DNA of 64,000 nt from Alphaproteobacteria bacterium (GTDB taxonomy: Bacteria; Pseudomonadota; Alphaproteobacteria; UBA2136; UBA6156), in the NCBI GenBank assembly GCA_027485835.1, contig JAIXQG010000001.1:2948-66947 (forward strand). The letters are read 5' to 3'. Position numbers and translations under genes: made by a program. Positions 5,733-56,491 of the stretch are shown one piece after another. How positions within the stretch are numbered: position 1 is the first letter of the stretch; every line of letters starts with the position of its first letter. Under the pieces are notes generated by a model. It did no database searches. It was not told where the DNA came from and was given only the letters and a program-made list of their open reading frames with translations.

Positions 5733-7607
5733 TTAGATCCGGCAGTGGAAGAGCTTACCATTAATATTGACGATGTTGCCCACATTGCTGGCGTTGCACG
5801 CCGATGTCGCGTTGGTTTTGAGGTTGATAGAGTTGCTGACGGCAAGCGAGCCGCTGATGTTGACTGTAGCGCTCACTGCGATATTGCCCGAGGGATCGGC
5901 AATAGCTGTCGTAGTACCGGATACGATACGGTCACCACTACTGCCACCACCGCCGCCACTTAAGCTGGAGAAGGTTGTACCGTTACAAACGCTGAGGGTA
6001 CCCGCAGAGTAGCGAATGGCACCAGCTGTTGCGGCCGAGCAGACGACGTTACTGTTGCTGACCTGAATTTCACCAATCACGCTCAGGCTTACGGCAGGAG
6101 AGGTTGTACCGAGGCCGATGGCATTTGCGACATACGCACGGGTGCTTGAGATGCCATTTAATGTAGTGATGCTGATACCCGGAGCTACGAGGCGGCCGAC
6201 AGTGTCGAAGTATGCCGTACCTGCAATACCACCAGTGGTGAATGATACGGTACCGATACTTGCGGCAACCCCACCCAAGCTTGCGCCAGAGGCTACACCT
6301 GTGGTGGAGATGCGGTCGGTTGCGACTTCTCCTACAAAACGTGTTGCATTGATTGTGCCTGATACCGTGAGACCCGATGCGGTGAGCAGCATGGATTGAA
6401 CGCCAGAAGAAACCGATGTTCCGCCTATACGCCAGCGGTGTTGGGTGTCTGCCCAGTGAGTGAGTGTGAAGGATTCGATACCGGTACCGTAGGTATTGCC
6501 CCAGTAGGTGACTTTATCGCCTGTGGTTGCCGTGAAGTTGACGGATGTGCTGAGGCTAACGCCGGTCGCATTGATGGCGCCGCCTACGTTAAGTGTATAG
6601 GAGGGGTTTGTGAGAGTACCTATACCCACTACTCCCGTTGACAGATTATAGACGAAAGGCCGGAAGGCATTCCAGGTACCGTATTGGTCTCCGCTTGCTG
6701 TTTGGAGCAGGTAGACGTTGGAACCATCGTTCCGCCAGAACACGCCGAAGCTGCCTTGAATCGAGCGGAAGGCATTCGCACCTGTTGATATGATTTCGCC
6801 CGAGCTACGCAGACCACCTGAAACATCCAACCTGTAAGTGGTGGATGGAGTCATACCCATACCGATGCTACCAGTGGAATCGATACGCATTCGCTCTGTT
6901 CCGGCTGTGCTTATGCCTATGCTATCTAACGCGGGGAGGAATAATCCCGTGTTTACATCGTTAACCCAGGTGTAAACTGGTAGTGCGGCCGTGCCTGACG
7001 GGCCCACGGAGACGCGCGTTGTTGAGATGCCGTTCGCTGTTGTAATGCTGATGCCCGGAGTGACAAGGCGACCGGAGGTATCTAAGTACGCCGTGCCCGA
7101 TACACCCCCCGTGGTAAAGCTGATGGTACCGCCATTACCCGCGACGACATTTGCAGAGGTGCTGATAATACGGTCGGAGCTGCCGCCGGCTCCGCCACCA
7201 TTGGTAGTTATGGCCACACCGTTGACGGTGAGGGCGGTGGCGCTGATGTTCGTTGCAGAAACCGAATTGCTGCTAAAGTTTGGGAGGTAACTGGCGGTAG
7301 AGCCTAGGTAGCCCCATGTGGTGCCGGCGGTGGTGAGGCTGACGTTGTTAACCGTGAGGCCACCGGTGAAGGTTGTGTGGCCGGTGGTGGCGCTGATGGA
7401 GGGGGCGTAGGAGGGGCAGCCGATATCGCCGCGGGTGGATTCCCCGATACAAATACGACTCCCCGAAACACCGATTGTGGCGGAAACCATGGCGTATTCT
7501 GACCAGATTTGGGCGCTAGCGGACAACGGCAACAGGCCAGAGAGAGTGACACAGAGAGCAATTAGGCGGAGCATGGGGGCATACCGTTTTTGTATATCTT
7601 TAGGCAC
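5733..7607 (-). CDS. secreted tail-fibre-like / adhesin-like repeat protein
   Basis: Signal peptide MLRLIALCVTLSGLLPLSASA. Composition is rich in G, S and T. Two roughly 60-aa internal repeats read (G)n-SDRI(I/S)..FTTGG(V/I)(S/A)GTAY(L/F)DT.GRLV.PGISITT.NGIS.TR. There are repeated IG(L/M)G(T)..P...L.V.G motifs and two C-terminal Cys pairs. Start may be GTG 7607 or ATG 7574. Confidence 0.8.
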   Translation of the reverse strand: MPKDIQKRYAPMLRLIALCVTLSGLLPLSASAQIWSEYAMVSATIGVSGSRICIGESTRGDIGCPSYAPSISATTGHTTFTGGLTVNNVSLTTAGTTWGYLGSTASYLPNFSSNSVSATNISATALTVNGVAITTNGGGAGGSSDRIISTSANVVAGNGGTISFTTGGVSGTAYLDTSGRLVTPGISITTANGISTTRVSVGPSGTAALPVYTWVNDVNTGLFLPALDSIGISTAGTERMRIDSTGSIGMGMTPSTTYRLDVSGGLRSSGEIISTGANAFRSIQGSFGVFWRNDGSNVYLLQTASGDQYGTWNAFRPFVYNLSTGVVGIGTLTNPSYTLNVGGAINATGVSLSTSVNFTATTGDKVTYWGNTYGTGIESFTLTHWADTQHRWRIGGTSVSSGVQSMLLTASGLTVSGTINATRFVGEVATDRISTTGVASGASLGGVAASIGTVSFTTGGIAGTAYFDTVGRLVAPGISITTLNGISSTRAYVANAIGLGTTSPAVSLSVIGEIQVSNSNVVCSAATAGAIRYSAGTLSVCNGTTFSSLSGGGGGSSGDRIVSGTTTAIADPSGNIAVSATVNISGSLAVSNSINLKTNATSACNASNVGNIVNINGKLFHCRI

Positions 7608-7705: not shown

Positions 7706-9544
7706 TCAGTCTGGCAAGAAGCCGCCTGATTGGCGGGACCAGAGGCGGGCGTAGGCGCCGCCTTTTTTGAGAAGCTCGGCATGCGTACCGTCTTCGATGA
7801 TTTGGCCGTTGTCCATGACGATCAGGCGGTCTAGCTGCGAAATAGTGGAGAGGCGGTGGGCAATGGCGATAACCGTGCGGCCTTCCATCAGGGTTTGCAG
7901 GTTCTCTTGAATCGCGTGCTCGACTTCGCTGTCCAGTGCCGAGGTGGCTTCGTCCATGATGAGGATCGGTGCGTTTTTGAGGATGAGGCGTGCGATGGCG
8001 ATACGCTGGCGTTGGCCACCGGAGAGTTTGACGCCGCGCTCTCCCACCTTCGATTGGTAGCCGGTGTTGCCGTCTTTATCCGACAGTTGGCGGATGAAGC
8101 TATCGGCTTGCGCGAGTTTGGCGGCGTTTTCGATGTCTTCATCGGTCGCCGTGGGGTTACCGTAGGCGATATTGGAGCGGATGGAGCGGTGCAGAAGGGA
8201 GGTGTCTTGCGTCACCATACCGATGGCGCTGCGGAGTGAGTTTTGCGTGACGTTGTTGATGTTTTGGCCGTCTATCCGGATATCGCCTTCATTGACCTCG
8301 TAGAAGCGGAGCAGGAGGTTGACCAGCGTACTTTTGCCCGCGCCGGATTGGCCGATAAGCCCAACCTTTTGGCCTGCCGGGATGGTGAGGTTGAGGTTAT
8401 TCAGCACTGCGTCGCCTTCCGGGTGGTAGCGGAAGGTGACGTTTTCGAAGCGGATTTCGCCTTTGTCGATTTTCAGTTGCGTGGCGCCTGATTTATCTTG
8501 CAGCGTGTGCGGCTGGATGAGGACGTTCATCGTTTCTTCCGCCGTGCCCAGATGTTCGAAGAAGGCGGTGAGTTCGTTGGCTATCCAGCCCGCCTGGTTT
8601 GTGAGCATGACGGCGATAGGAATGACCATGGCGATGGAGCCTGCGGTAATGTGGCCGTGGGTCCAGAGATAAAGCGCCAGTGCCAGCGTGTTACCCATAA
8701 AGACGGTATTGTTGAGGTCGCACCATGCCTTCATTTTAAAGACCGCAATGTGGGTGGCGACGTGGTGGTTGCGTGCGTTGACGATCGAATTGACGATGGA
8801 GGAGTCTTCCGAGACGTCATTCGCAAACAGTTTGACGGTTTGGATGTTCGTATAAGCATCCACCGTGCGGCCGACGCTGGCGCTGCGGGCGTCAGAGAAC
8901 TCCATGGAGCGGCGGCGGATGGAGGGAATGCTAAAGCGCAGGATAAAGGCGTACATAACCAGCCAGAAGGCCAACGGCGTAAGCAATAAGTAGCTGGAAC
9001 TGGCAAAGCTGAAGGCTGACACGAGAATAGAAACCGTGACCCACCAGAGGCTACCGGTGAGGATGAGGACGACTTCGCGCAGAGCGCTGCCAGCATCGAA
9101 CACTTTGTTAGCCAAGCGGCCGGCGAAGTCGTTTTGGAAAAAGCTGAGGCTGTGGCGCAGCATGTACCAGTGCATCTGGCGGCGGATGGCGTGCGTGTAA
9201 GTGCTGGTAAACAGAGTAGCGTTGAGTGCGTTGTAGCATGTGCCCGCAATAAGGCGCACTATGAGCGCTATGGCGACGTATTGGCCCACCGGATACATAA
9301 GTAGGGGCCACGCTTCCGCTGGATTGGGTGTCGTGTTGATAATGTCTATGATTTTTTTAAGAAAAAAGGGCGCGATGGCTAAGCCGAGTGCGGCTGTACC
9401 GTTTAGGGTGAACAGAATGGCGAGCAGCTTTTTTTGTTGCCGCGCAAAGTGCAGAATGTAAGGCAGCAGGCGGCGCGGCGGGTAGGGGTTTTCGGGCAGT
9501 TGGGAGATATCGGCAAGGGCGGCGAGGCGTTTAAGAAGGGACAT
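7706..9544 (-). CDS. ABC transporter, fused permease/ATP-binding protein (MsbA-like exporter)
   Basis: N-terminal 6-TM domain followed by Walker A GQSGAGKST, signature LSGGQRQRIAIAR and Walker B ILIMDEATSALD. Confidence 0.95.
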   Translation of the reverse strand: MSLLKRLAALADISQLPENPYPPRRLLPYILHFARQQKKLLAILFTLNGTAALGLAIAPFFLKKIIDIINTTPNPAEAWPLLMYPVGQYVAIALIVRLIAGTCYNALNATLFTSTYTHAIRRQMHWYMLRHSLSFFQNDFAGRLANKVFDAGSALREVVLILTGSLWWVTVSILVSAFSFASSSYLLLTPLAFWLVMYAFILRFSIPSIRRRSMEFSDARSASVGRTVDAYTNIQTVKLFANDVSEDSSIVNSIVNARNHHVATHIAVFKMKAWCDLNNTVFMGNTLALALYLWTHGHITAGSIAMVIPIAVMLTNQAGWIANELTAFFEHLGTAEETMNVLIQPHTLQDKSGATQLKIDKGEIRFENVTFRYHPEGDAVLNNLNLTIPAGQKVGLIGQSGAGKSTLVNLLLRFYEVNEGDIRIDGQNINNVTQNSLRSAIGMVTQDTSLLHRSIRSNIAYGNPTATDEDIENAAKLAQADSFIRQLSDKDGNTGYQSKVGERGVKLSGGQRQRIAIARLILKNAPILIMDEATSALDSEVEHAIQENLQTLMEGRTVIAIAHRLSTISQLDRLIVMDNGQIIEDGTHAELLKKGGAYARLWSRQSGGFLPD

Positions 9545-9630: not shown

Positions 9631-10743
9631 TTAGAATTTAACGCGCATGCTAACGGTGTAGATGTTGATATCTTCGATGTTGCTGACGCCTTCGACATCG
9701 GCACTCAGGTTACGATACAGGCCGCCGACGCTGACACCGTTGCCGAGGTCGCGGTCGGCACCAATACCGTAGACGTCCATTTCATGTTCGGTAGATGTGG
9801 CGACGGGGTTTTTGAACTTACCGTACTCGGCCGCCACACCGTAGGGGCCAAAGGCGTAGCCGACCTTACCGTAGTAGCCTTCGGCTTCATCGACGCCGGA
9901 GGCCTTTTTAGACAAGTGTTGAGTGGTGTAGGCAATGGTGGCACCCAAACCGCTGGTGTGCTTGACCGAGGCGGAGCCGCTGGTGGCACCGGTTTGCTCG
10001 TTAGTTGCGGTAGAGGTTTCGTCGTTTACAAAGCTGTGACCGAGGGCGGTATCGATTTCGAAATCGCCGAAGGTGTTGGCATAGCGGAGAGCTGCGTCGA
10101 CATTTCCGCCTTGGCTGACGCTAAGGCTGCCGTTAACGCCATTGTAGGTTGCCGAGTTGAAACGTACGGAATTCGTCAGAGCCGTGTCTCCGTTGTTACC
10201 GAGGGCAAATTCGTCTGGCGTGACGTCGGTACCGCCTAGGCTTACCACTGTACCGGTGCTGGTATGGAACTTGAGGCCGCCACCGAAGGAGGCGACGTTT
10301 ACGTTGACGATACTGCCGGCTGCAGCGAGGTCGTGGGCTAGTGTGTCGTCGTTTGCGACATCCTGTCGGCCGATAAACAGAGCGCCGTGTTCGCTCGCCA
10401 GACCGACACGGGCGATGCGTTCCTCTAAGTTAGCCGTGGTATTGCTGGGGGTGTGGGATTGGCTAGGCGTGGTGTTTTGGGTGAGGGTGTGGCTGGCGTT
10501 GGATTGGGATTGGGCTTCGAGCAATACGGATGCGGTCAGGCCGTTGTCGAGCTTTTGCTCTCCGGCAAAGCCGAGGCGGGTGGAGAGGTTGTTGTCGTCG
10601 ACCACCGTGAATTCTTTGTCGATGCCGTCGTCGTAGCCCATGGCGGCTTTGGATACGTTACCATAGAGTTTGACATCTAAGGCGTTGGCGGCCAATGGCA
10701 TAGCCACTGTAGCAACGGCTGTAAGGAGAAAGGGGGAGCGCAT
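9631..10743 (-). CDS. outer-membrane porin
   Basis: Signal peptide MRSPFLLTAVATVAMPLAANA, alternating beta-strand pattern and C-terminal ...YTVSMRVKF. The ATG at 10743 avoids the overlap with the tRNA gene that the 455-aa track ORF would create. Confidence 0.85.
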   Translation of the reverse strand: MRSPFLLTAVATVAMPLAANALDVKLYGNVSKAAMGYDDGIDKEFTVVDDNNLSTRLGFAGEQKLDNGLTASVLLEAQSQSNASHTLTQNTTPSQSHTPSNTTANLEERIARVGLASEHGALFIGRQDVANDDTLAHDLAAAGSIVNVNVASFGGGLKFHTSTGTVVSLGGTDVTPDEFALGNNGDTALTNSVRFNSATYNGVNGSLSVSQGGNVDAALRYANTFGDFEIDTALGHSFVNDETSTATNEQTGATSGSASVKHTSGLGATIAYTTQHLSKKASGVDEAEGYYGKVGYAFGPYGVAAEYGKFKNPVATSTEHEMDVYGIGADRDLGNGVSVGGLYRNLSADVEGVSNIEDINIYTVSMRVKF

Positions 10744-10891
10744 TTTTGTATGTCCTTTATTAATGAGAACAATTTTGATGGTTCGCCGCGGAGGGTGTAA
10801 AGAGGGAGAGGCGGGGATGGTGAATTGGGTGTGATAAGTTTGCCGTTTGGTGTGGCTTATTGAACGCGGGCTGCCTTTAAATAAAAGCAAT

Positions 10892-10913
10892 AAAAAGAAG
10901 CCCTTGCGGGCTT
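10892..10913 (-). terminator. terminator downstream of tRNA-Ser
   Basis: Minus strand reads AAGCCCGCAAGGGCTT followed by a T-run. Confidence 0.55.
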
Positions 10914-10919
10914 TGAATC

Positions 10920-11012
10920 TGGCGGAGCGGGGGGGATTCGAACCCCCGATACGGATTTTGTCCGTATGACGATTTAGCAAACCGTTGCCTTCAGCCACTC
11001 GGCCACCGCTCC
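10920..11012 (-). tRNA. tRNA-Ser (anticodon GCU)
   Basis: Hand-folded cloverleaf. The acceptor stem is GGAGCGG/CCGCTCC. The anticodon stem-loop is ACGGT-TTGCTAA-ATCGT. There is a long variable arm, the T arm is GGGGG-TTCGAAT-CCCCC, and the CCA end is encoded. Confidence 0.95.
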
Positions 11013-11265
11013 AGCGCGCGCAACTTGCCTTTAAGTGGGGCGGATGTCAATCCGCTCGGTTTAGAAAATGCGCTTTTGTTAGGTTTATACGTGCATTTAC
11101 AATTTAAAACAATGGCTTGATAGTTATTGTGGGAGGGTGTGCATTTAGACTGTGCGGATTTGCAACCCTACGGGGTGGATTGTGCCGATTTTACAGGCGG
11201 AGAGCCTTGATATTACCGGCGCTGAAACCCATACTGACCTTATGTTGAGCTGCCTAAAGGGTACT

Positions 11266-14200
11266 ATGTACCGTTCGCTAACCCTGTTGGGGTTGGTTTT
11301 GGTATTTATGGTTGTGGCCAGTAATGGCTGGGCTCAGTTTCTTGTTGAAGGTGGTGAGCTTGCTGAAAAATACACTCAGTATCCTTTCTTAGGTGTTGAT
11401 AACACTCAGCGCAATATGCTTATCAATGCCTTTAACTTCCAGAGCCGCATATTTACTATGATGAGCGGGACTGGAGTTGAAAAGGTTGAGGCTTTTAACA
11501 TTTTAGCAATATTGGGAGCTCTTGTAGGGGCTTTGCTATTGTTCTTTAATGCAAAAATTCGCAAGCCCATGATCGTAGCTCCATGGTTAATAGTTCTTAT
11601 CCTGCTTGTATTTGCGCCTTATGGAAGTAAATTGCTATTTTACCCCGTATCTCAACAGTCATTACAACCTGTATTTACTGGTCCTCGAGCGACTATTGTC
11701 GAGAAAGATTGTGTGTCAGCTCCTGAAATATGTGGATTCGCACCACAGATTGTGGCTGTTCACGTTGCTTCTACATTACAGATGCTGTTCTCAGATGCTT
11801 TCCGTTCGGCTGGTTGGGAAGGATTGATGGAGTCCTTCAAGGCTCGAGCTGAATTATCCGGTTCGCCTAATTTAAATCTTAACCCTCAGGTTATTCAGAG
11901 GTTGAATGAATATGACAAGGCTTGTTCTTCCACGCCTATTACGAATCACGTTGATACTCTCTTTCCAGTAAGTAGTGCCGCCGCAAGCACGCCAACCGGT
12001 GCTGCAGGCAGTTCTGCACCTGCAGAAGATCAAAAGACCGTACCAATCCGATTTGCCGATAAATGGAAAAGTATCACGAATGAGATGAATAATGCCGATA
12101 TTGATGTCGGCTTAATGCCTCCTGATGCCATAGAACTTTGGGATGATGCAGCGTTTAAGACTGCTATGACTGAAAACGGTTGGGGACAAACCGTTCAACA
12201 GGAGTACGAAGCTGGGCTTACGCAGCTGTACCAAGCTGCCGGTGGTATTGCTACTGTATCTATTGATGCAACTACCTGCAGTGATGCAGAGAGTTGTGCC
12301 GGTAAAACCAAAGTTTCTGCTTTGACGGCCCTTAGAAAGCTTGAAGATAGTGGTTTTTTCAAAATTTATCAGAAAGATCAGCCTTATGGTGAGGAAGATT
12401 CTGGAAGAGATACCCGCTTGCTGCCTGGCTTTTTTGTTTATTGGGACGGAGCAAAGAACAACGACAGTAAATCGACTGAGCCGGCAGATGAAACGTTCTC
12501 TGCGGCTGGAGCACGGGCATGTTACCAAGCTAATTCTGGTGAGTTAAATATGGATCCCAGTTGCAGACGAATTGGTACTAACTATGGTCAGCAACTTACT
12601 TATGTTAAGGACAATTTCTTTAGTTCTGATAATTCTATTTTTAGTGTGCCTGAATGGCAGATTATGAGTGCTATTCAAGATCCCCGCTCAGCTATATCAC
12701 GTATGCCTGTTAAGCCACGTCGTTACTCTGAAGGAGTTAAGACTGATGAGGGAACCTCTAAACCTGTTGTTCAAGAGAACAAGGGCGGACAAAACTGTGA
12801 AGTTGATGGCGTTAATACAATTAAAGAGATTATCAATTTAACAGTTGGACCTGAGGGAACGACTAACAAAGCTGCCCGTAAGGACATGTTTAGCAATACT
12901 CAAAAACTATTGCTTGGTGAGACACCACTTCCTGCTCGAATCACTCTCAAAGATGTATGTAACGATGTGACGGATCCTGATACAGCATCTGAGGAATGTC
13001 ATACTGGTGCGGGGTTAGCAGCGGATGAAGAAATCACGAATATTGGGAAGAATATGGCCCTGTTCTTTGACGAAATTGTTCGTGCAAATTCGACGAAGAC
13101 TACGAGTGAAAAAAATAACATTATGTTAAGAGAATTTCTGAGATTGATTCAGGAATCCAGCATGAATGCTCGTAAAGGGGACCCAGATGCTGCTCAAAAA
13201 GCGGCGCAAGATGGCACAAGCCCAGAAGTCGTTGGTGCACGCTGGCTCACATCGCTTGGTGGAGGGATTGCGACGCTGTTAGGAAGCTTTATTGTTCAAA
13301 TTGGCTCTTGGTTTGTTGGACCTCTCTCTGCGGCTATTATCTTCTTCCTGACGATGTTGGTAGATATGTCGCTCATGATTTTGATCATCCTCACTCCGTT
13401 CCTTCTTTTGGCTGGATTGTTTGTGCCAGGGAACGCGATTGGTGTGCTTACTGTTAGCATTGTTGGGGTGTTTGTTCTGAAGTTTGTGCCGGTGACGTTG
13501 GTCATTTTAAACTATCTTGGCGCGATGATTTACACCTTTGTTGGTTATGGTGCTGACCCTGAATTAGCAAAAACCATGCAGAGTATGATTATCATTGCGA
13601 TGGGTGGTATGTATGCGAGCCTTGTGACAATGACGTTCTTCTTGTTGTTCAAGATGGGTGATGCTTCCGCCATTCTCAGTCGCTTTACGGCATTGGATAA
13701 TAATGCCAAGGAAATTGCCCAGCGTGGGATGGGGGCTGCCCTTACATTGGCAAGTGCGGCTGCTATTATTGCCGGTGGTGGAGTTGCGGCGGCGCTAGGT
13801 CGTGGTTCGATGGGTTTGGCGGCCAAGAAAGCTGCTGCGAATTTAGGTATTCCGCCGGGCTGGGTTGATGCTGCTAAGGGGCTTGCTGAGACGCCAAACA
13901 AAGATGCTAAAACTGCAGGTAACGGTAAAGAGGGGCCGGAGGGTGTGGAAGACCTCCCTACCGAACCGTTGGATGGGCTCACTGCTGAAGAGCGTGCCAT
14001 GCGCGATCAGAACGATGACATTCTGGGGGCCAAGCTAGACCAGGCAGGCCTTGAACGTGCTAAAAAACAGAATGCCGCATCCGACGCCAAGGAAATGTTG
14101 CGTGATGTGTATGGCAGGCACTTTGAAGGAGGCATTAGTGCGGAAGAGGCGGAGAAGTTTGTTGATGAAGGTCGTCTTGTTAAGGAAGACAAGTATGGCA

Positions 14201-16797
14201 ACATGCGTGAATTTCAGCTTACCAAGAATGGTGATGCCTATGGTGTGAATCCGAGCGGTATTACGCCCAAGATTGCCGGCGCGAGCGAAACCGTTGGTAC
14301 AGGCATTGGCTCGACAGTAGGTGATGCCATTGGCACTGATGCTCAGGCAAATGCGGCTCTTTCCGAGACAAATGGTATGCCTACGGCAGAGGGAGGTGCT
14401 AATACATCTCAAGCTGCGGCAGGTGGAGGTGGTATACCGGCCTCTGTGACCATTGCAGGTGGTAGCTTGAGCTCGATTGACTCTGTTGGTGAGGTCGGAC
14501 GAATTCAGCAAAGTGCGACTGAACAAGCTAGCATGCAAGACCGCGTAAAAGAGATTGCGGCTGAAAAAGAAGCAGAGCGTCAGGCAGCCGAGAACAAAGA
14601 CGCATTGGCGCTTGCGAATAATACCAAGCTTGAGCCGACTCAGAGAGAACAACTCTCTAAAATTGCGGATGAGTTAGACAAGACTACTGACGAGGATCGT
14701 CGTGAGGAACTCTTTAAACAGCAAGATGATGTTCTTAAGCAGGCTGGTAAGACCAAGGCTGGTATGAAGCGTGATGAGCTATTAACGCGCAATATGAATG
14801 ACCAGATTGCCGAAGCATTGTTGCGCTTTGATAGTGAGCACGGTGAGGCATATCAAGCTGCTGATAAGAAGAAGCAGAGTGGTGGAGCTCTTTCTAAGCA
14901 AGAGAAAGAGCTTATGGCTATACGTGATGGTTTGGCTAACTTTGATACGGCCGGAGTTGCTCAGGGTGAGATCATGTCACGTCTGGGGACTTTTGAGAGT
15001 TTAAATGCGTCTCTGCGGGCCCGTGCTGGCGCCGATAACTTGCCGAGCTTAGGTGCGAGTGTTTTGAGTGGTATGTACGGTGGCTTAACAGGTGCTGGTG
15101 GCGGCTTAGCCAAAATTCCGGTTATTGGGCCGGCAATTACTGAGTCTATCAATGAGTTCTATCAAGCACCTGAACGTGCCCGTGCTGCTGCGGCTGTAGG
15201 TGGACTCGGAGCTTGGTGGTCTGCTCAGGGCAATGCCAAGCGTATGGGCTTCTACCAGAAGGAAATGACTCCGCTTGTTGCAGCTCAGCAGTATGAATCT
15301 ATGTCTACTATTGGCGGATTCCAAGCTCAGGCAGATCTTGCTCGTCAGGCTGCAAATGAGGCTGTGGCACGGAGTCGTTCTCAGTGGGAAGCAATGGTTG
15401 CTAGCCGCGCACCGACCCTTTCCATGGATTTACGCAATGAAATCTTGAGTAAGAATCCTAATATCTCTCAATCTGATTTACAGGTTGAATTAAGCCGTAG
15501 GTTTAATGAAAAGATTAATAGTTCTGAATTCAAGGTTGTGATGTCTGCGGGAGAGCTCTCTGGTTTGGGCCGTTTGGATGCTGCAGATAAGATTGCCTCG
15601 GTGCGGCAGGAAGCTTTCCTGATGCAGGGTGCTTCTCTTGATGTGAAGCGTGTTAAGGGTGGTTTAGATGGCAATATGATGCTTAAGGCTGGCTCTACTG
15701 CAGGTTTGAATGTTGAAGTGGAGCAGGTAGGTGTGGTTCTTACTCCGGAAGCTTTGGCGCGTGTGCGTGGTGATTTGACCACTAAGGCTACGATTGGTAA
15801 ATATGATGACATGATGCTCGCGCATTATGGACTTGCTGAGAAGCAGTACTTACGGGGTGATGCGGATTGGGACTCTACTCGTAATATGAACACGAGTGGT
15901 GCTGCAGCACGCATGTTTGCCCGTAAGGATGTGTCGACGGACTACCTGATTGGTGGGCACCTTAAGATGGTATCGGGTAAGGAAAAATTCCTCGAAGGTA
16001 AGGCTCAGTATGAGACTTTGGTGAAGTTCCGTAACGAAACCAATAACAAGATTGCCGAGTTTATGCAGACCCAGCTTGCGGGCGCAGGTGGCCAGCTCTC
16101 TAAGGTGCTTGCCGATGCGGGTGTTCAGGGCAAACTGAGTGGCTTAAGCGGACGTGATTTAGCTGTAAATACGCGTATGGAGCTTGAGAAGTGGGCTGGC
16201 AAGCAAATGGTGGCAAATAAGGAATACCTGCCGCTTAACTTGTTGTTTGAATCTGCTGATGCGCGTGGAAGATCTTCTTACGAATTAAAGGCTAAGAAGG
16301 CACGTTCTGAGATTGCTGCTGAAAATGCGGCGGTTTGGGAAGCAGTGGATAAGGCTCGTCGGGCTGCTGTGGCCAGTGCGTTACCTTCTTTGAATAGTTC
16401 TGCGAAGAAAGCAGCAAAAACCGAATGGAACGGCTTTAATATTGAAGCTGGTGCTCCGTTAGAAATTTTTACAGAATGGCTGGACAGTGCTTTAGGTACG
16501 GCTTCAGAAGAAATTCTGGGTAAGCTCAGTAAAGCAATACCTTCAGCTATGCAGGACTCTTTCTTGCGATCTGAAAAGAGAACTATAAAAATAGATGGAA
16601 AGGATTACCGTGAAGTTGTGTCCTATATGAATAAGGATGCTTTTGCGGAACTGCAGCGGACAATGAACGAAGAGCAAAGAAAAGCCTTTTTAGCAGAAAA
16701 GAAATACTACCGTGAAGCTAACGGACGGATTGAGTTGTCTCGTACGGTTATGGGTAGCGACGGAAGCATTCGTGAAGACTTGTCGCATAACAGATAA
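11266..16797 (+). CDS. giant polytopic membrane protein of unknown function (about 1843 aa)
   Basis: Single uninterrupted ORF (the track gives 11152-16797 from a GTG). The ATG at 11266 yields a canonical signal peptide, MYRSLTLLGLVLVFMVVASNGWA. Two further hydrophobic helices lie near 11500-11640, an exported region with many Cys follows, and about 6 TM helices are encoded at about 13240-13800. The last roughly 1000 aa are A/E/K/Q-rich helical and Gly-rich. No enzymatic motif recognised. G+C is visibly lower than in the flanks. Confidence 0.85.
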   Translation: MYRSLTLLGLVLVFMVVASNGWAQFLVEGGELAEKYTQYPFLGVDNTQRNMLINAFNFQSRIFTMMSGTGVEKVEAFNILAILGALVGALLLFFNAKIRKPMIVAPWLIVLILLVFAPYGSKLLFYPVSQQSLQPVFTGPRATIVEKDCVSAPEICGFAPQIVAVHVASTLQMLFSDAFRSAGWEGLMESFKARAELSGSPNLNLNPQVIQRLNEYDKACSSTPITNHVDTLFPVSSAAASTPTGAAGSSAPAEDQKTVPIRFADKWKSITNEMNNADIDVGLMPPDAIELWDDAAFKTAMTENGWGQTVQQEYEAGLTQLYQAAGGIATVSIDATTCSDAESCAGKTKVSALTALRKLEDSGFFKIYQKDQPYGEEDSGRDTRLLPGFFVYWDGAKNNDSKSTEPADETFSAAGARACYQANSGELNMDPSCRRIGTNYGQQLTYVKDNFFSSDNSIFSVPEWQIMSAIQDPRSAISRMPVKPRRYSEGVKTDEGTSKPVVQENKGGQNCEVDGVNTIKEIINLTVGPEGTTNKAARKDMFSNTQKLLLGETPLPARITLKDVCNDVTDPDTASEECHTGAGLAADEEITNIGKNMALFFDEIVRANSTKTTSEKNNIMLREFLRLIQESSMNARKGDPDAAQKAAQDGTSPEVVGARWLTSLGGGIATLLGSFIVQIGSWFVGPLSAAIIFFLTMLVDMSLMILIILTPFLLLAGLFVPGNAIGVLTVSIVGVFVLKFVPVTLVILNYLGAMIYTFVGYGADPELAKTMQSMIIIAMGGMYASLVTMTFFLLFKMGDASAILSRFTALDNNAKEIAQRGMGAALTLASAAAIIAGGGVAAALGRGSMGLAAKKAAANLGIPPGWVDAAKGLAETPNKDAKTAGNGKEGPEGVEDLPTEPLDGLTAEERAMRDQNDDILGAKLDQAGLERAKKQNAASDAKEMLRDVYGRHFEGGISAEEAEKFVDEGRLVKEDKYGNMREFQLTKNGDAYGVNPSGITPKIAGASETVGTGIGSTVGDAIGTDAQANAALSETNGMPTAEGGANTSQAAAGGGGIPASVTIAGGSLSSIDSVGEVGRIQQSATEQASMQDRVKEIAAEKEAERQAAENKDALALANNTKLEPTQREQLSKIADELDKTTDEDRREELFKQQDDVLKQAGKTKAGMKRDELLTRNMNDQIAEALLRFDSEHGEAYQAADKKKQSGGALSKQEKELMAIRDGLANFDTAGVAQGEIMSRLGTFESLNASLRARAGADNLPSLGASVLSGMYGGLTGAGGGLAKIPVIGPAITESINEFYQAPERARAAAAVGGLGAWWSAQGNAKRMGFYQKEMTPLVAAQQYESMSTIGGFQAQADLARQAANEAVARSRSQWEAMVASRAPTLSMDLRNEILSKNPNISQSDLQVELSRRFNEKINSSEFKVVMSAGELSGLGRLDAADKIASVRQEAFLMQGASLDVKRVKGGLDGNMMLKAGSTAGLNVEVEQVGVVLTPEALARVRGDLTTKATIGKYDDMMLAHYGLAEKQYLRGDADWDSTRNMNTSGAAARMFARKDVSTDYLIGGHLKMVSGKEKFLEGKAQYETLVKFRNETNNKIAEFMQTQLAGAGGQLSKVLADAGVQGKLSGLSGRDLAVNTRMELEKWAGKQMVANKEYLPLNLLFESADARGRSSYELKAKKARSEIAAENAAVWEAVDKARRAAVASALPSLNSSAKKAAKTEWNGFNIEAGAPLEIFTEWLDSALGTASEEILGKLSKAIPSAMQDSFLRSEKRTIKIDGKDYREVVSYMNKDAFAELQRTMNEEQRKAFLAEKKYYREANGRIELSRTVMGSDGSIREDLSHNR

Positions 16798-16820: not shown

Positions 16821-18926
16821 ATGAAGTTAAAAGCTTACGCCGCACGCTATGAGATGAGCAAGGGGGAGAGCCCCTTGCTCCTGATTGACGAACGTGTGGC
16901 TGAGGACTGGTTTGGGCGCGAGCCTTTTGATGATACACAAGCTCAAGGTGTAAGCGACAACCTTATGATGGCGCCTTATGGCACGACCGATGGCCATAAT
17001 TTGATGCGCGACAGCACCATTATGGATGGCATGCAGTTGGATAAGTATGTGCCGTTGTCTCCGTTGTTTGTCAAAGACCTTGCGGGACGCACTATTTACA
17101 TTGGTTATGGCCCTGAGCGGAAGTCTAACTACGAATGGCAGGCCTATGCTGTGGATGTGGATAAAGTTGGACCTGAAGAAGTAAACCCGTTTATTCCGCT
17201 CGTAGTTTTCCCCCGGTTTTGCCGTGACGCAAGTGGAATGGATGGGGAGGACTTACTGGAGCAGGTATTTTTGACCAAGTTCCGTTGCTTGGAAATGAGT
17301 ATGGGCTTTCATGGACAGCTTAGTGGAGCCGGTGAGGATGACCCGTTGGTTTCGGCGAGTTATGATGGCGCCAACCTTTATCCGTATAAGTTACGTATGG
17401 ATACTTTCTATATTGATGGGTACAAAGTGCCTCAAACCCAAATGGTTTACGCCCGAGGCATGCAAGATGGTGTGAGCCCGGTACAAGCAAAGAAGCTTGG
17501 TTTGAAGTTTTTGCAGCAGTGGAGCGAACGTCCGGCTGGTACGACATATGAACAATGGTTGGAACAATTTGGAGAAGACCATGTTGAGGACTTATTTCAG
17601 TCTGGCTGTTCTGTTATTCCAACCTTTGAGGCCTGTAACGGATATCATCTTGTCGGGCGAGAATTCCAGTTAGAAGACTTCTGGCCGGGCCGCGCTGTTT
17701 TGGGGTTGCATGATGTGGCCGATACTCGTACCGATAAGGCGCCTGCTGGAACCATTTTAGACGTTTTAGAGCCTGGATTTGTAACTGCAGACTACGTAAG
17801 GCCGGCTAAGGTTGTTGTGAGCGATGGAAGTGGTTACGTTAGCCCAAATGCGAGTGACCCTGACCCCTTGGTACCTAATTTGAATTTGCCGCATCCGCGG
17901 CTGATTGATAATTGGCGTGCGGTTTGGTTACCTACTCACCCCCTGCATTTTGAAGCACCTGCGTTGTGGGGATGGGATATTTCCACTGGACGATTTATGC
18001 AGATTGCTGGCCCGGTTTGGGACCCTTTGCATTACTATTATGAGAGTGTGGATCGGGTATTGGCTGCGTTTGATGCTTACCCGTTAGGATCAAACCGGAC
18101 GGGTTTAGTGCCTGTACCGGATGATATGGAAGAGCGATTCTTTCCGATTGTACCAATGACTGGGTTTGATACATTTTCGGAAGCTGAATTTAAGCGCCGA
18201 TTAGAAAAAAACGTACTACCGAAGAGCTGTATTAAGCGGTTCAATACCGGCCAATATTCTGCCGGTTTAGGGTATCACCCGTTGCCGGCTGAATTTGAGT
18301 TTGAGTTGGATCCGTTCTGGTTCCCGGAACTGCATCCGCTTAACCGTGAGCAGGGGGCTGCTCCGGAAGATGTAGACTCTCGTATTAGCCCGGTTATTAA
18401 CCCTCAGATTACCGTTACCGTGTTTAAGCCTACGGTGGATGCTCCTGCACAGGCAACGTGGATGACAGATGATGCCAAGTTAATGACGCCGATGCCTGAT
18501 CCTCTTACAAATTATCCGCAATTGACTCGTTATCTTTTACCGGATGCGGATATTGAGACCATCATGAAGATATGCCCAGTGCCTTACTTGGGGCAACCTG
18601 AAGAGGAAGAGATACTTACGAAACCTGCGACGTTGTGGTGGACTACAGAGGAAGGTCTTCAGCTTGATAACCCTGTTGCATTGGAAGATTTTATTCCTGG
18701 AGTGCATGATGCTTTATGGGATATGCGTCAGAAAGGTGTTGATATCGTTAAATTCCGTCACATGATCTATCGCACCAATCTGCCACTTTACATGTTGGGT
18801 TGGTGGTATGGTTGGGATTTGGACCGGATGCAAGGCTATGCTGTGAATTGGATTCAAACATCGGTTGCAGAAGATCAGCAGATGCAGACTATTTTACGTG
18901 ATTTAACAGTAAATGCTCGCACTTAA
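16821..18926 (+). CDS. hypothetical 701-aa soluble protein, partner of the giant membrane protein
   Basis: Starts 23 nt after the preceding stop on the same strand and has the same low-GC composition. No signal peptide or TM helix. Acidic and rich in Trp and Pro. No motif recognised. Confidence 0.85.
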   Translation: MKLKAYAARYEMSKGESPLLLIDERVAEDWFGREPFDDTQAQGVSDNLMMAPYGTTDGHNLMRDSTIMDGMQLDKYVPLSPLFVKDLAGRTIYIGYGPERKSNYEWQAYAVDVDKVGPEEVNPFIPLVVFPRFCRDASGMDGEDLLEQVFLTKFRCLEMSMGFHGQLSGAGEDDPLVSASYDGANLYPYKLRMDTFYIDGYKVPQTQMVYARGMQDGVSPVQAKKLGLKFLQQWSERPAGTTYEQWLEQFGEDHVEDLFQSGCSVIPTFEACNGYHLVGREFQLEDFWPGRAVLGLHDVADTRTDKAPAGTILDVLEPGFVTADYVRPAKVVVSDGSGYVSPNASDPDPLVPNLNLPHPRLIDNWRAVWLPTHPLHFEAPALWGWDISTGRFMQIAGPVWDPLHYYYESVDRVLAAFDAYPLGSNRTGLVPVPDDMEERFFPIVPMTGFDTFSEAEFKRRLEKNVLPKSCIKRFNTGQYSAGLGYHPLPAEFEFELDPFWFPELHPLNREQGAAPEDVDSRISPVINPQITVTVFKPTVDAPAQATWMTDDAKLMTPMPDPLTNYPQLTRYLLPDADIETIMKICPVPYLGQPEEEEILTKPATLWWTTEEGLQLDNPVALEDFIPGVHDALWDMRQKGVDIVKFRHMIYRTNLPLYMLGWWYGWDLDRMQGYAVNWIQTSVAEDQQMQTILRDLTVNART

Positions 18927-20666: not shown

Positions 20667-20693
20667 GAAAGGCCACAGGCCTTTCTTTCGTTT
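20667..20693 (+). terminator. terminator of ssb
   Basis: GAAAGGCC-ACAG-GCCTTTC followed by a T-rich tract. Confidence 0.6.
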
Positions 20694-20739
20694 GGAGCTA
20701 AAGGTTGTGGTTGGTGGCTTGGAGACCTATACTTATTGT

Positions 20740-21246
20740 ATGAAAATGTGGATGTGGTTGGTGGCATTATGTTGCCTAAGTGGGGCGGCTGTTGCGCAAG
20801 AGCGTACGGCGGGTGGGAGTTTGCAGACGGAGTCTAGCTGGACGGCTTTAAAAGCCATGATAGGCAAGACCGATGGCGATGTTTCCCTACTGAAAACAGA
20901 TGTAAACGCCATAAAATCGTGTGCTGCGCAGAAGAAGATGTGGGACCCTGCCAAAGGGTGTGTGAACATTGACACCAGTTTATACGACAGCATGATTGCG
21001 TGTGGAGATGTTGGAAAAGTCTATGATAAGAGTTCTAATTCTTGCGTTTCGGCAGGTGGGAACTGTTCTTTGAAGCTGGTTCATCAATATGTCTCCAAAT
21101 CCGGGGGGCATCCTATTGGAAGAAAGACGGGAAGTTGTCCCGCCGGTTCGTATCGATTGATGACAAGTAGCGCGAGTGTGTATTGCTCTAATGATGCCAG
21201 TTGTACTGAGCAACGATTTGATTGCTTGGCGGTAACATGTCAATAA
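20740..21246 (+). CDS. secreted 10-Cys protein, QERTA family, tandem copy 1
   Basis: Signal peptide MKMWMWLVALCCLSGAAVA followed by QERTAGGSLQTESSWTAL. The mature part has 10 Cys. Paralog of the next gene. Confidence 0.7.
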   Translation: MKMWMWLVALCCLSGAAVAQERTAGGSLQTESSWTALKAMIGKTDGDVSLLKTDVNAIKSCAAQKKMWDPAKGCVNIDTSLYDSMIACGDVGKVYDKSSNSCVSAGGNCSLKLVHQYVSKSGGHPIGRKTGSCPAGSYRLMTSSASVYCSNDASCTEQRFDCLAVTCQ

Positions 21247-21266
21247 AGATAGTGAAAGCTTTGAAA

Positions 21267-21776
21267 ATGAAGGTGTTTTTATGTGTTGTGGCGCTATGCG
21301 CTGTTGCCGTGACTGGAGCTGTTGCGCAGGAGCGAACGGCGGGTGGGAGTTTGCAGACGGAGGCTAGCTGGACGGCGTTGCAAAGCATGATTGGTAAAAC
21401 CAATGGCGATGTATCTATCATTAAAACTGATTTGAATGCGATGAAGGCGTGTGCCGCGGATCGGAAGATTTGGGACCCTGCTAGAGGCTGTGTGAACATT
21501 GATACCACGTTATATGATAATGTGGTTACGTGCGGTGATTCTGGGAGAGTTTATGACAGGAGTGCCGGAGGATGCGTGCCTGCGGTTGCGGTTGCACCCA
21601 CGTGCCGACTCTCCTCGGTGGCGAAATCTTCCAGCAACCGGGGCTCTAATGACGAGACGAGTTGTCCGGCTGGTGCTTATGTGGATATTAAGAGCTCCAG
21701 CACTAGTGACTGCCATGGGAGTTCTTATCAATGTACCCGTACGCAGTACAATTGTGTGACTGTGGTGTGTAACTAG
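21267..21776 (+). CDS. secreted 10-Cys protein, QERTA family, tandem copy 2
   Basis: Signal peptide MKVFLCVVALCAVAVTGAVA followed by QERTAGGSLQTEASWTAL. It has 10 Cys at matching positions, and the C-terminal half has diverged from copy 1. Confidence 0.7.
   Translation: MKVFLCVVALCAVAVTGAVAQERTAGGSLQTEASWTALQSMIGKTNGDVSIIKTDLNAMKACAADRKIWDPARGCVNIDTTLYDNVVTCGDSGRVYDRSAGGCVPAVAVAPTCRLSSVAKSSSNRGSNDETSCPAGAYVDIKSSSTSDCHGSSYQCTRTQYNCVTVVCN

Positions 21777-54998: not shown

Positions 54999-56491
<1,493 letters not shown>

What the first reader, a model, noticed from the sequence alone, without database searches (positions are those of the whole stretch)
11266..16797. 1.8-kaa protein with a signal peptide, large exported Cys-containing domain, 6-helix membrane core and 1000-aa tail
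Reading the translation gives this layout:
- A canonical Sec signal (MYRSLTLLGLVLVFMVVASNGWA) and two hydrophobic helices (nt about 11500-11640).
- A roughly 530-aa hydrophilic region with scattered Cys pairs, probably periplasmic.
- A dense block of about 6 TM helices (nt about 13240-13800).
- About 1000 residues of A/E/K/Q-rich helical sequence, for example QDRVKEIAAEKEAERQAAENKD...DEDRREELFKQQDDVLKQ. Gly-rich linkers such as GMYGGLTGAGGGLAKIPVIGP interrupt it.

The topology, an exported domain plus a multi-helix core plus a huge cytoplasmic extension, resembles extended VirB6/TraG_N-type channel subunits of type IV secretion systems or phage tape-measure-like proteins. No other secretion or phage genes are nearby. 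The resemblance is topological only.
Basis: inference. Interest (0 to 1): 0.7.

Follow-up and report, generated by a model that had tools for sequence, protein, structure and literature searches.

The report
Giant divergent TraG-like secretion-system protein
This 1,843-residue membrane protein is real and is most likely a very divergent, doubled-in-size relative of TraG, the inner-membrane subunit of F-type conjugation (type IV secretion) machines; it is always followed by an unknown 700-residue partner gene and occurs only in uncultured alphaproteobacteria.

Summary
The protein matches no Pfam, NCBIfam, PHROG, PADLOC or PDB entry. An exhaustive search found about 120 relatives (50%-identity clusters), all unnamed and from metagenomes.

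An equally orphan 701-aa protein (16821-18926) follows it in all 12 related genome loci that hold both genes. That partner is more conserved than the big protein.

In 15 more distant loci the pair lies in a fixed cluster: lytic transglycosylase, UvrD-like helicase, ParB-like protein, secreted protein, big-protein homologue (937-1289 aa), partner, F-type TraB/VirB10, lipoprotein, F-type TraC/VirB4.

Four results link the family to TraG:
- Sub-threshold Pfam TraG_N hits.
- Colinear profile-profile alignments that score above all shuffled controls.
- Shared core motifs and a conserved cysteine pair.
- A cysteine-free C-terminal domain (3 Cys in 65,459 tail residues; 0 in six real TraG tails).

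So the TraG_N idea is supported and the tape-measure idea is rejected. The claim that the tail is cytoplasmic is doubtful. No other type IV secretion gene lies in this 64-kb window. Whether the pair still serves a scattered machine or has been exapted is open. I rate it a new variant of a known kind, of moderate interest.

The parts
11266..16797 (+). Gene for the 1843-aa TraG-like membrane protein ('BIG'). A possible alternative start is the ATG at 11242.
   Evidence: ORF and translation. Full-length homologues. A conserved upstream in-frame MLSC motif.
11266..11334 (+). Signal-peptide-like N-terminus (aa 1-23, MYRSLTLLGLVLVFMVVASNGWA|Q).
   Evidence: Hydropathy. The G[WF]AQ end is conserved in the alignment. 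Cleavage was not tested.
11494..11631 (+). N-terminal membrane hairpin (aa ~77-122) with a positively charged KIRKP turn. It is part of the family-wide 'N block' (aa ~29-200, including FAPYGSKLLF and C..CGF.PQ..H).
   Evidence: The N block is found in 108 of 122 family representatives. It aligns with the first two membrane helices of TraG in hhalign.
11632..13230 (+). Exported (periplasmic) domain, aa ~123-655. It contains all 10 cysteines of the protein.
   Evidence: Cys positions. Invariant C156, C419, C511. Family Cys frequency before the core is 1.08%. Two nearly invariant family cysteines align with the conserved Cys pair of TraG. AF2 gave moderate confidence only for aa ~260-530.
13231..13800 (+). 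Membrane core, aa ~656-845 (4-6 helices). This is the most widely conserved part of the family, with invariant TP (710-711), P721, K739, P742, N749 and TFFL.FK.GD (790-799).
   Evidence: The core is found in 115 of 122 representatives. It aligns to F TraG residues 335-431 and to Pfam TraG_N positions 216-457 in homologue P0231. Motif comparison.
13801..14775 (+). Variable low-complexity linker, aa ~846-1170 (A/G/E/K/T-rich, length-variable, poorly conserved).
   Evidence: Alignment A1. Composition.
14776..16797 (+). Conserved, cysteine-free C-terminal tail, aa ~1171-1843. Conserved blocks are tail1 (nt 15013-15405), tail2 (nt 15538-16095) and tail3 (to about nt 16365).
   Evidence: Invariant columns. 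The blocks occur in 59, 49 and 28 of 122 representatives, mainly those over 1300 aa. 3 Cys in 65,459 tail residues of 91 members. A mostly helical, low-confidence AF2 model. No similarity to the TraG C-domain.
16821..18926 (+). Partner gene: a 701-aa soluble protein of an orphan family, 23 nt downstream. It has no signal peptide and no membrane helix.
   Evidence: At least 187 homologues, all unnamed. It sits immediately downstream of the BIG homologue in all 12 related genome loci that hold both genes and in the metagenome loci with enough sequence. Maximum hydropathy 0.77. No Pfam, NCBIfam, PDB, plasmid, phage or viral match apart from a weak GrpE-like motif.

Best explanation
The gene encodes a very divergent, enlarged member of the TraG lineage. 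TraG is the polytopic inner-membrane protein of F-type type IV secretion (conjugation) systems and the functional counterpart of VirB6.

**Shown.**
- It belongs to a MAG-only family of about 120 sequence clusters.
- Shorter members (937-1289 aa), together with the same partner protein, are fixed components of a conserved chromosomal cluster that also encodes a lytic transglycosylase, an F-type TraB/VirB10 and an F-type TraC/VirB4.
- The TraG-like gene and its partner form a stable two-gene module that persists when the cluster is split or rearranged.

**Inferred mechanism.**
- The N-terminal hairpin and the 4-6-helix core sit in the inner membrane as part of the channel or assembly platform.
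- The disulfide-bonded exported domain contacts the periplasmic parts of the machine.
- The soluble partner docks on the cytoplasmic face.
- The cysteine-free linker plus tail behaves like the C-terminal TraG* domain of F TraG. It would be an extended, flexible, helical arm exported beyond the inner membrane for cell-cell contact or stabilisation. I put about 60% on this location, against about 40% for a cytoplasmic scaffold.

In the window's clade the tail has grown by about 700 residues and the pair sits among housekeeping genes. The remaining machine genes are presumed to lie elsewhere in the genome, as in the split loci L030-L032.
For: **Family and partner.**
- Family and size.
- Partner always adjacent and more conserved (45-72% against 27-61% identity).

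**Cluster context.**
- SLT, UvrD, ParB-like, secreted protein, BIG, partner, TraB, lipoprotein, TraC, two more genes, in 15 loci.
- TraB matches NCBIfam F-type TraB at 2.3e-21 and Pfam TrbI at 6e-13. TraC matches TIGR02746 (TraC-F-type) at 4e-60..
- The TraC homologue matches F-type plasmid TraC genes in 4907 plasmids.
- The A1 profile hits the cluster-embedded 1240-aa and 1176-aa proteins at 1e-18 and 2e-27.

**Link to TraG.**
- Pfam TraG_N in 3 of 40 distant members. For P0231: E 2.3e-4, residues 500-726 against profile positions 216-457.
- hhalign of the whole family against 6 TraG proteins: score 43.6, against 28.4 reversed and at most 35.6 in 10 shuffles.
- hhalign of the short subfamily: colinear over TraG 3-478, score 48.8, E 2.3e-4, against at most 37.1 in 16 controls.
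- Shared core motifs: (T/F)P.L.LA, P..L..ILN and K.G at the core's end.
- Same architecture and cysteine pattern: Cys in the exported loop and none in the 579-738-aa C-domains of six TraG proteins. 3 Cys in 65,459 residues of family tails, against 1.08% before the core and 1.02% in the partner.
- The F TraG C-domain is described as a periplasmic, flexible, largely helical arm joined by a linker (PMC9797247).

**Split loci.** L030-L032 and L035-L036 show that the cluster can be separated into modules.
Against: - The protein itself has no hit to TraG_N or any other family at E <= 0.01.
- The TraG_N hits are below Pfam's gathering score (20.7 against 36.1 bits).
- hhalign probabilities are only 21-44%, and membrane regions invite false similarity.
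- The tail shows no similarity to the TraG C-domain.
- None of the F-specific genes (TraH, F, N, U, W, TrbC, TraK, E, L, A) could be recognised in the clusters. So the machine is at best a remote cousin of F-type systems.
- No TraB, TraC or other cluster gene occurs within this 64-kb window. Their presence elsewhere in this genome is assumed, not shown.
- Counting five helices with the positive-inside rule puts the tail in the cytoplasm.
- The AF2 models were too poor to help.
Confidence: 0.55

Rival explanations
1. Exapted module. The TraG-like protein and its partner descend from a type IV secretion cluster. In the window's clade they now work without the rest of the machine, for example as an envelope-spanning adhesion, contact or surface-display device whose enlarged cysteine-free tail is the functional part.
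For: - In the window and in L001-L012, L014, L018 and L026 the pair lies among housekeeping genes with no TraB or TraC within up to 10 kb. None is in the 64-kb window.
- Synteny with porin, grx, bolA, ssb and recG is conserved across species, as for a core gene.
- Stand-alone copies are much longer (mostly 1607-2056 aa) than cluster-embedded ones (937-1289 aa), and they carry tail blocks that most short members lack.
Against: - Only +/-10 kb (here 64 kb) of each genome could be seen.
- Split arrangements exist (L030-L032, L035-L036), so distance from TraB/TraC does not prove loss.
- The partner and the membrane core remain under strong constraint, as expected if old interactions persist.
Confidence: 0.3
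2. Unrelated to type IV secretion. It would be a lineage-specific polytopic membrane protein with a cytoplasmic coiled-coil scaffold (a polar or division organiser, or a mechanosensitive-channel-like protein), and its position next to TraB/TraC in some genomes would be incidental.
For: - No significant hit of the protein itself to any T4SS family.
- An A/E/K/Q-rich helical tail.
- A soluble partner without a signal peptide.
Against: - The same gene order recurs in 15 independent loci from different samples, with the pair between cluster genes.
- Colinear TraG similarity above controls, plus shared motifs and cysteine pattern.
- A cytoplasmic scaffold does not explain 3 Cys in 65,459 residues when the partner has 1.02%.
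Confidence: 0.1
3. A phage tape-measure-like protein or another mobile-element or defence gene.
For: Length and helical, Gly-linker-interrupted composition. A Peptidase_S74 tail-fibre-like gene lies 3.7 kb upstream.
Against: - No PHROG or PADLOC hit.
- No relative of the partner in 50,697 phage records, 72,556 plasmids or IMG/VR.
- No relative of the cluster-embedded homologue P0225 in plasmids.
- A signal peptide plus multiple membrane helices.
- Conserved housekeeping synteny.
Confidence: 0.02

Closest known systems
TraG of F-type (MPF_F) conjugation systems (Pfam TraG_N, PF07916), e.g. F/R100 TraG and the ~1100-1200-aa TraG_N proteins of IncA/C-like and Rhodanobacter plasmids
   Same: - The order of parts is the same: an N-terminal pair of membrane helices, an exported loop with a conserved cysteine pair, a cluster of membrane helices with shared motifs, a flexible linker, and a long cysteine-free, largely helical C-terminal domain.
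- Both are encoded with F-type TraB and TraC (in the distant homologues).
- Weak but colinear sequence similarity.
   Different: - Below every curated threshold.
- It has an added signal peptide.
- The exported domain is about twice as long (530 against ~250 aa).
- There are one or two extra hydrophobic segments before the shared core.
- The tail is unrelated in sequence and about 1000 aa long.
- It is followed by a 700-aa soluble partner rather than TraS.
- No TraH, TraF or TraN neighbours.
- It is chromosomal, in a housekeeping context and MAG-only.
Extended VirB6-like proteins of Rickettsiales (rvh system) and VirB6/TrbL in general (Pfam TrbL, PF04610)
   Same: Both are polytopic inner-membrane T4SS subunits with very large extensions, encoded in alphaproteobacteria whose T4SS genes are scattered over several loci. 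The Rickettsiales part rests on my own knowledge and on PMC2653234, which appeared but which I did not read in detail.
   Different: - No TrbL hit for this protein or for any of 40 distant relatives.
- No hhalign signal to R388 TrwI.
- The associated VirB4 and VirB10 are F-type, not P-type.
DotA/TraY of type IVB (Dot/Icm, IncI) systems
   Same: A polytopic inner-membrane protein with a ~500-aa periplasmic domain between membrane helices (own knowledge).
   Different: No NCBIfam or Pfam match. Only a 'faint' DotY flag on one homologue. The associated genes are F-type.

Membership tests
TraG (F-type T4SS; Pfam TraG_N PF07916) | Significant match to the TraG_N profile | tested here: inconclusive
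   The window protein has no hit at E <= 0.01. 3 of 40 distant family members hit TraG_N. The best is P0231: E 2.3e-4, 20.7 bits, below the gathering score of 36.1.
TraG (F-type T4SS; Pfam TraG_N PF07916) | Profile-profile similarity that is colinear with TraG_N and exceeds composition and topology controls | tested here: met
   hhalign score 48.8 (E 2.3e-4, probability 44%) over TraG 3-478, against 23-37 in 16 controls. The whole family scores 43.6 on the core, against at most 35.6. Shared motifs. The signal is weak, so this is supportive rather than proof.
TraG (F-type T4SS; Pfam TraG_N PF07916) | Architecture: N-terminal membrane hairpin, exported loop with conserved Cys pair, membrane-helix cluster, long Cys-free C-terminal domain | tested here: met
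   All six reference TraG proteins have Cys only before the core and none in tails of 579-738 aa. Family tails have 3 Cys in 65,459 residues.
TraG (F-type T4SS; Pfam TraG_N PF07916) | Encoded together with the VirB4 (TraC) and VirB10 (TraB) genes of an F-type system | tested here: inconclusive
   Met for distant homologues in 15 loci. Not met in this window. The rest of the genome could not be searched.
TraG (F-type T4SS; Pfam TraG_N PF07916) | Presence of the F-specific assembly genes (TraH, TraF, TraN, TraU, TraW, TrbC, TraK, TraE, TraL, pilin) | tested here: not met
   None was recognised in the clusters by HMM or hhalign against the Rhodanobacter and F plasmid proteins. The templates were single sequences, so the test has low power.
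TraG (F-type T4SS; Pfam TraG_N PF07916) | Periplasmic location of the C-terminal domain; role in pilus assembly, mating-pair stabilisation and entry exclusion | not testable with these tools
   The topology is ambiguous from sequence alone. Reporter fusions and genetics are needed.
VirB6 / TrbL (Pfam PF04610) | Match to the TrbL profile or to a bona fide VirB6 | tested here: not met
   No TrbL hit for the protein or for 40 relatives. hhalign to R388 TrwI gave probability <= 1.9%. This test has low power: real TraG also failed it.
Phage tape-measure proteins | Match to tape-measure families and a location in a tail-gene module | tested here: not met
   No PHROG hit. No phage or viral relatives of the partner. 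Housekeeping neighbours.
DotA/TraY (type IVB) | Match to the NCBIfam DotA/TraY model | tested here: not met
   The NCBIfam scan returned no family at E <= 0.01.

The most novel reading that the evidence does not exclude
The TraG-like protein plus its orphan 700-aa partner is the persistent core of a previously undescribed type IV secretion-like apparatus of a MAG-only alphaproteobacterial lineage. That apparatus keeps only VirB1-, VirB4-, VirB10- and TraG-like parts and has a UvrD-like helicase and a ParB-like protein in place of a relaxase and coupling protein. In the window's clade the pair has been exapted, and its 1000-residue cysteine-free tail is threaded out of the cell to contact another cell (host, prey or mate).
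Probability: 0.2. Interest if true: 0.8.

Novelty: new variant of a known kind. Interest (0 to 1): 0.55.

Why it matters
- It gives a name and a testable role to two large orphan families (about 120 and at least 187 sequence clusters) that are invisible to Pfam, NCBIfam, PHROGs and the PDB.
- It defines a conserved, very divergent F-related type IV secretion-like cluster in uncultured alphaproteobacteria. Only three or four of its roughly twelve genes are recognisable, and it has no identifiable relaxase, coupling protein, pilin or secretin.
- It shows that the TraG-like protein and its partner are the part that survives when the cluster is broken up. That makes them candidates for the functional heart of the system, or for a new stand-alone envelope device.
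- Near-absolute cysteine avoidance in about 65,000 tail residues, shared with real TraG C-domains, is a simple sequence signature. It may be useful for recognising exported arms of secretion-system subunits.

Tried and rejected
- **Family libraries on BIG and the partner** (Pfam, NCBIfam, PHROGs, PADLOC): nothing, apart from a weak GrpE-like motif in the partner.
- **PDB sequence profiles** of both families: nothing.
- **AlphaFold2.** Run on aa 1-860 and aa 1170-1843 with only 7 sequences. pLDDT was 45 and 53. Foldseek against the PDB gave only noise. In hindsight, one job would have been better spent on the partner with its deep alignment.
- **Word-indexed homologue search** with the family alignment: no gain.
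A chimeric single sequence of the conserved parts was accepted and worked.
- **Sequence searches against TraG.** Pairwise phmmer/HMM of TraG against the family found no signal. tblastn of a cluster-embedded homologue (P0225) against plasmids found none.
- **hhalign tests.** Tail against the TraG C-domain: none. The other cluster genes against F-type TraK, V, E, L, A, H, U, N, F and TrbC: none (one search timed out). Against VirB6 (TrwI): none.
- **Taxonomy.** I suspected Micavibrio-like predators from the GC content and GC skew but could not test it. The one paper naming UBA6156 was uninformative. I make no taxonomic claim beyond uncultured Alphaproteobacteria.
- **Promoter and terminator scan** around the operon: not above chance.
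Full report

Yes. The frame is open from 11152 to 16797. The ATG at 11266 gives a 1843-aa product, the longest ORF in the window.

Hydropathy and the translation confirm each element at the coordinates given:
- A signal-peptide-like start ending GWA|Q.
- Two hydrophobic helices at aa ~77-122, joined by KIRKP.
- A hydrophilic stretch of about 530 aa that contains all ten cysteines (149-578).
- A dense hydrophobic core at aa ~656-845.
- About 1000 further residues.

The gene is not a chance ORF. Full-length homologues at 27-61% identity exist in twelve other genomic loci.

The seven-sequence alignment shows block-wise conservation:
- An N block including FAPYGSKLLF and C..CGF.PQ..H.
- The membrane core, with invariant TP710-711, P721, K739, P742, N749 and TFFL.FK.GD.
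- A variable low-complexity linker (aa ~846-1170).
- Strongly conserved tail blocks at 1256-1376, 1431-1449 and 1493-1600.

The tail is therefore more than A/E/K/Q-rich coiled coil. A conserved in-frame MLSC motif upstream suggests that the ATG at 11242 may be the real start.

**2. What databases say about the protein itself**

Nothing. There is no Pfam, NCBIfam, PHROG or PADLOC family and no PDB sequence relative.

The word-indexed search found only six relatives, all about 1850-2050 aa, all unnamed and from metagenome assemblies.

An exhaustive phmmer search used a concatenation of the conserved parts as query. It found 120 representative clusters of 950-2190 aa. With block-specific HMMs, the N block is present in 108 of the 122 family sequences collected (those 120 plus two from the earlier searches) and the core in 115. 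The tail blocks are found mainly in members longer than 1300 aa: 59, 49 and 28 representatives.

**3. The neighbour matters**

A 701-aa ORF starts 23 nt downstream (16821-18926). It has no signal peptide and no hydrophobic segment: its maximum 19-residue hydropathy is 0.77.

It is an orphan too, but it has at least 187 homologues, all unnamed. In the twelve related genome loci that hold both genes it follows the big gene directly. It is more conserved than the big protein, at 45-72% against 27-61% identity.

The only database signal is a 30-residue GrpE-C-terminal-like motif (window residues 302-334), seen in 24 of 43 members at best E 5.9e-5. It has no relatives in plasmids, phages or IMG/VR.

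**4. Context in close relatives**

In the window's clade the pair sits in conserved housekeeping synteny:
- Upstream on the opposite strand: hemF, a Peptidase_S74 protein, an MsbA-like ABC exporter and a porin.
- Then the pair itself.
- Downstream: grx and bolA, then ssb, then recG, then sdh5 and mfd.

It is therefore a core chromosomal operon and not part of a mobile element. The rest of the window is housekeeping as well: topA, a class II tRNA synthetase, O-antigen ligase, glycosyltransferase, polyprenyl synthase and others.

**5. Context in distant relatives: the key result**

Partner homologues at about 36-45% identity lie in a fixed cluster. It was seen first in three loci. A metagenome scan and local HMMs then brought the total to 15 loci.

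The gene order is:
- Lytic transglycosylase (SLT).
- UvrD-like helicase.
- A ~710-aa ParB-like protein.
- A secreted 485-794-aa protein.
- The BIG homologue (937-1289 aa).
- The partner.
- TraB/VirB10.
- A 136-aa lipoprotein.
- TraC/VirB4.
- Two or three further orphan genes.

The TraB homologue matches NCBIfam F-type TraB (2.3e-21) and Pfam TrbI. The TraC homologue matches TIGR02746 (TraC-F-type) at 4e-60. It also matches annotated traC genes of 4907 plasmids. The 7-sequence BIG profile hits the cluster-embedded 1240-aa protein at 1e-18 and the stand-alone 1176-aa protein of L014 at 2e-27.

The cluster can be rearranged (divergent operons in L035 and L036) or split (BIG, partner and the secreted protein without TraB/TraC in L030-L032). 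One cluster lacks BIG (L043). In every other locus the BIG-partner pair stays together.

Stand-alone pairs occur in the window, L001-L012, L014, L018 and L026. Their BIG proteins are mostly 1607-2056 aa, against 937-1289 aa inside clusters.

**6. Is it TraG?**

I assembled six bona fide TraG proteins: F, Rhodanobacter, Aeromonas, Citrobacter, Providencia and IncT.

Direct HMM comparisons are silent. Several independent weak signals nevertheless point the same way:
- **(a) Pfam.** TraG_N is the only recurrent Pfam family among 40 distant members (3 of 40). In P0231 it covers residues 500-726 against profile positions 216-457. That is the region homologous to the BIG core.
- **(b) hhalign, whole family.** It aligns BIG 705-799 with F TraG 335-431 at score 43.6. 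The reversed template scores 28.4, and ten locally shuffled templates score at most 35.6.
- **(c) hhalign, short cluster-embedded subfamily.** It gives a colinear alignment over TraG 3-478 at score 48.8, E 2.3e-4, probability 44%. Sixteen controls score 23-37. The alignment pairs the two nearly invariant family cysteines with the conserved TraG cysteine pair (C164 and C210 in F).
- **(d) Shared core motifs, read by eye.** FPLLILAAVF against TPFLLLAGLF. WPLLYAILN against VPVTLVILN. ...MMVKGLG against ...LLFKMGD.
- **(e) Cysteine distribution.** All six TraG proteins have cysteines only before the core and none in C-domains of 579-738 aa. In 91 family members the tails hold 3 cysteines in 65,459 residues. 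The frequency is 1.08% before the core and 1.02% in the partner.

Together with the F-type TraB/TraC neighbourhood, I put about 75-80% on descent from the TraG lineage.

Against membership in the strict sense:
- No curated threshold is met.
- The tail is unrelated to the TraG C-domain.
- None of the F-specific assembly genes could be recognised in the clusters.
- No link to VirB6/TrbL was detectable, although that test has little power.

**7. Which side is the tail on?**

This cannot be settled here.

For the cytoplasm:
- Family-averaged hydropathy and charge give the KIRKP loop inside and the acidic 761-770 loop outside. That implies four helices in 664-760 plus 771-797.
- The weakly hydrophobic A/G-rich segment 823-845 has positive flanks on both sides.
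- These two features yield five helices and a cytoplasmic tail.
- The partner is soluble and lacks a signal peptide.

For export:
- The low-confidence AF2 model draws four long helices. An even count places the tail on the side of the exported domain.
- F TraG's C-domain is reported to be periplasmic, linked by a flexible segment and released at a signal-peptidase site (PMC9797247).
- A cytoplasmic location does not explain the extreme cysteine avoidance. The explanation I favour is that a long arm crossing an oxidising compartment, or threading through a channel, must avoid disulfide trapping. That is an inference.

I give the exported tail about 60%.

**8. Mechanism proposed (inferred)**

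- The hairpin and core form the inner-membrane part of a T4SS-like machine.
- The disulfide-bonded exported domain contacts the TraB/VirB10 scaffold.
- The partner binds the cytoplasmic face.
- The linker plus tail acts as a TraG*-like extended arm.

The window's clade either keeps the other machine genes elsewhere or has exapted the pair. These are the best explanation and the first rival, and only whole-genome data can decide between them.

**9. Novelty and verdict**

However, the object is not a recognised TraG or VirB6. It is a new, very divergent and enlarged variant. It is bound to an orphan partner, inside a previously unannotated and minimal-looking F-related cluster of uncultured alphaproteobacteria. 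I found no paper describing it. My interest score is 0.55.

**10. Limits**

- No transmembrane or signal-peptide predictor was available.
- The structure jobs were limited to a 7-sequence alignment and failed.
- The organism could not be placed beyond 'Alphaproteobacteria' as labelled on related MAGs.
- Only 64 kb of this genome could be inspected.

Noticed in passing
window 54999-56490 (+): A complete 16S rRNA gene (Rfam 1521 bits) with no 23S rRNA and no tRNA-Ile/Ala anywhere in the remaining 7.5 kb downstream or upstream. The rRNA genes appear to be unlinked. The local GC content dips to 0.46-0.51.
   Followed up: partly
window 5733-7607 (-), with 7706-9544 (-) and 9631-~10750 (-): A 624-aa protein with phage tail-fibre-like hits (PHROG tail-fibre families, E down to 8e-19; Pfam Peptidase_S74 in its 710-aa and 1513-aa counterparts in L002 and L003). 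It sits next to an MsbA/HlyB-like ABC exporter and a Porin_4 porin. The trio is syntenic upstream of the big gene in related genomes. Any functional link to the TraG-like pair is unknown.
   Followed up: partly
window 20692-21246 (+) and 21222-21776 (+): Two tandem paralogues (51% identical, about 165 aa mature). Both have signal peptides and many cysteines and match no known family. They are inserted between ssb and recG and are absent from the same position in L001-L003.
   Followed up: partly
window 17724-17822 (partner residues 302-334): The motif APAGTILDVLEPGFVTADYVRPAKVVVSDG resembles the C-terminal beta-domain of GrpE. It matches Pfam GrpE in 24 of 43 partner homologues (best E 5.9e-5) and NCBIfam GrpE at 0.016 in the L013 partner. 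Its significance is unknown.
   Followed up: partly
window 11215-11265 (+): The in-frame sequence upstream of the annotated start (..THTDLMLSCLKGT) is conserved at the amino-acid level in homologues P0004 and P0005 (HT.IMLSC.R). This points to an earlier start at 11242 or to a conserved leader.
   Followed up: partly
window 10920-11012 (-): A tRNA-Ser(GCT) gene lies between the porin gene and the big gene. It overlaps the mechanically extended porin ORF (9631-10998), so the real porin start is further downstream. No integrase or repeat suggests an island, although GC content drops from about 0.56 to 0.46-0.52 across 10-22 kb.
   Followed up: partly
whole window: GC skew is strongly positive and uniform (0.14-0.32 in every 2-kb bin). 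The whole 64 kb therefore lies on one replichore with marked strand asymmetry.
   Followed up: no
L013, L017, L019, L034, L042 and others (cluster loci): The T4SS-like cluster has no recognisable relaxase, coupling ATPase, VirB11, pilin or secretin. It always carries a UvrD-like helicase and a ~710-aa ParB-like/HTH protein. These may be its DNA-processing components, or the system may not transfer DNA at all. L043 has the cluster without a BIG homologue.
   Followed up: partly
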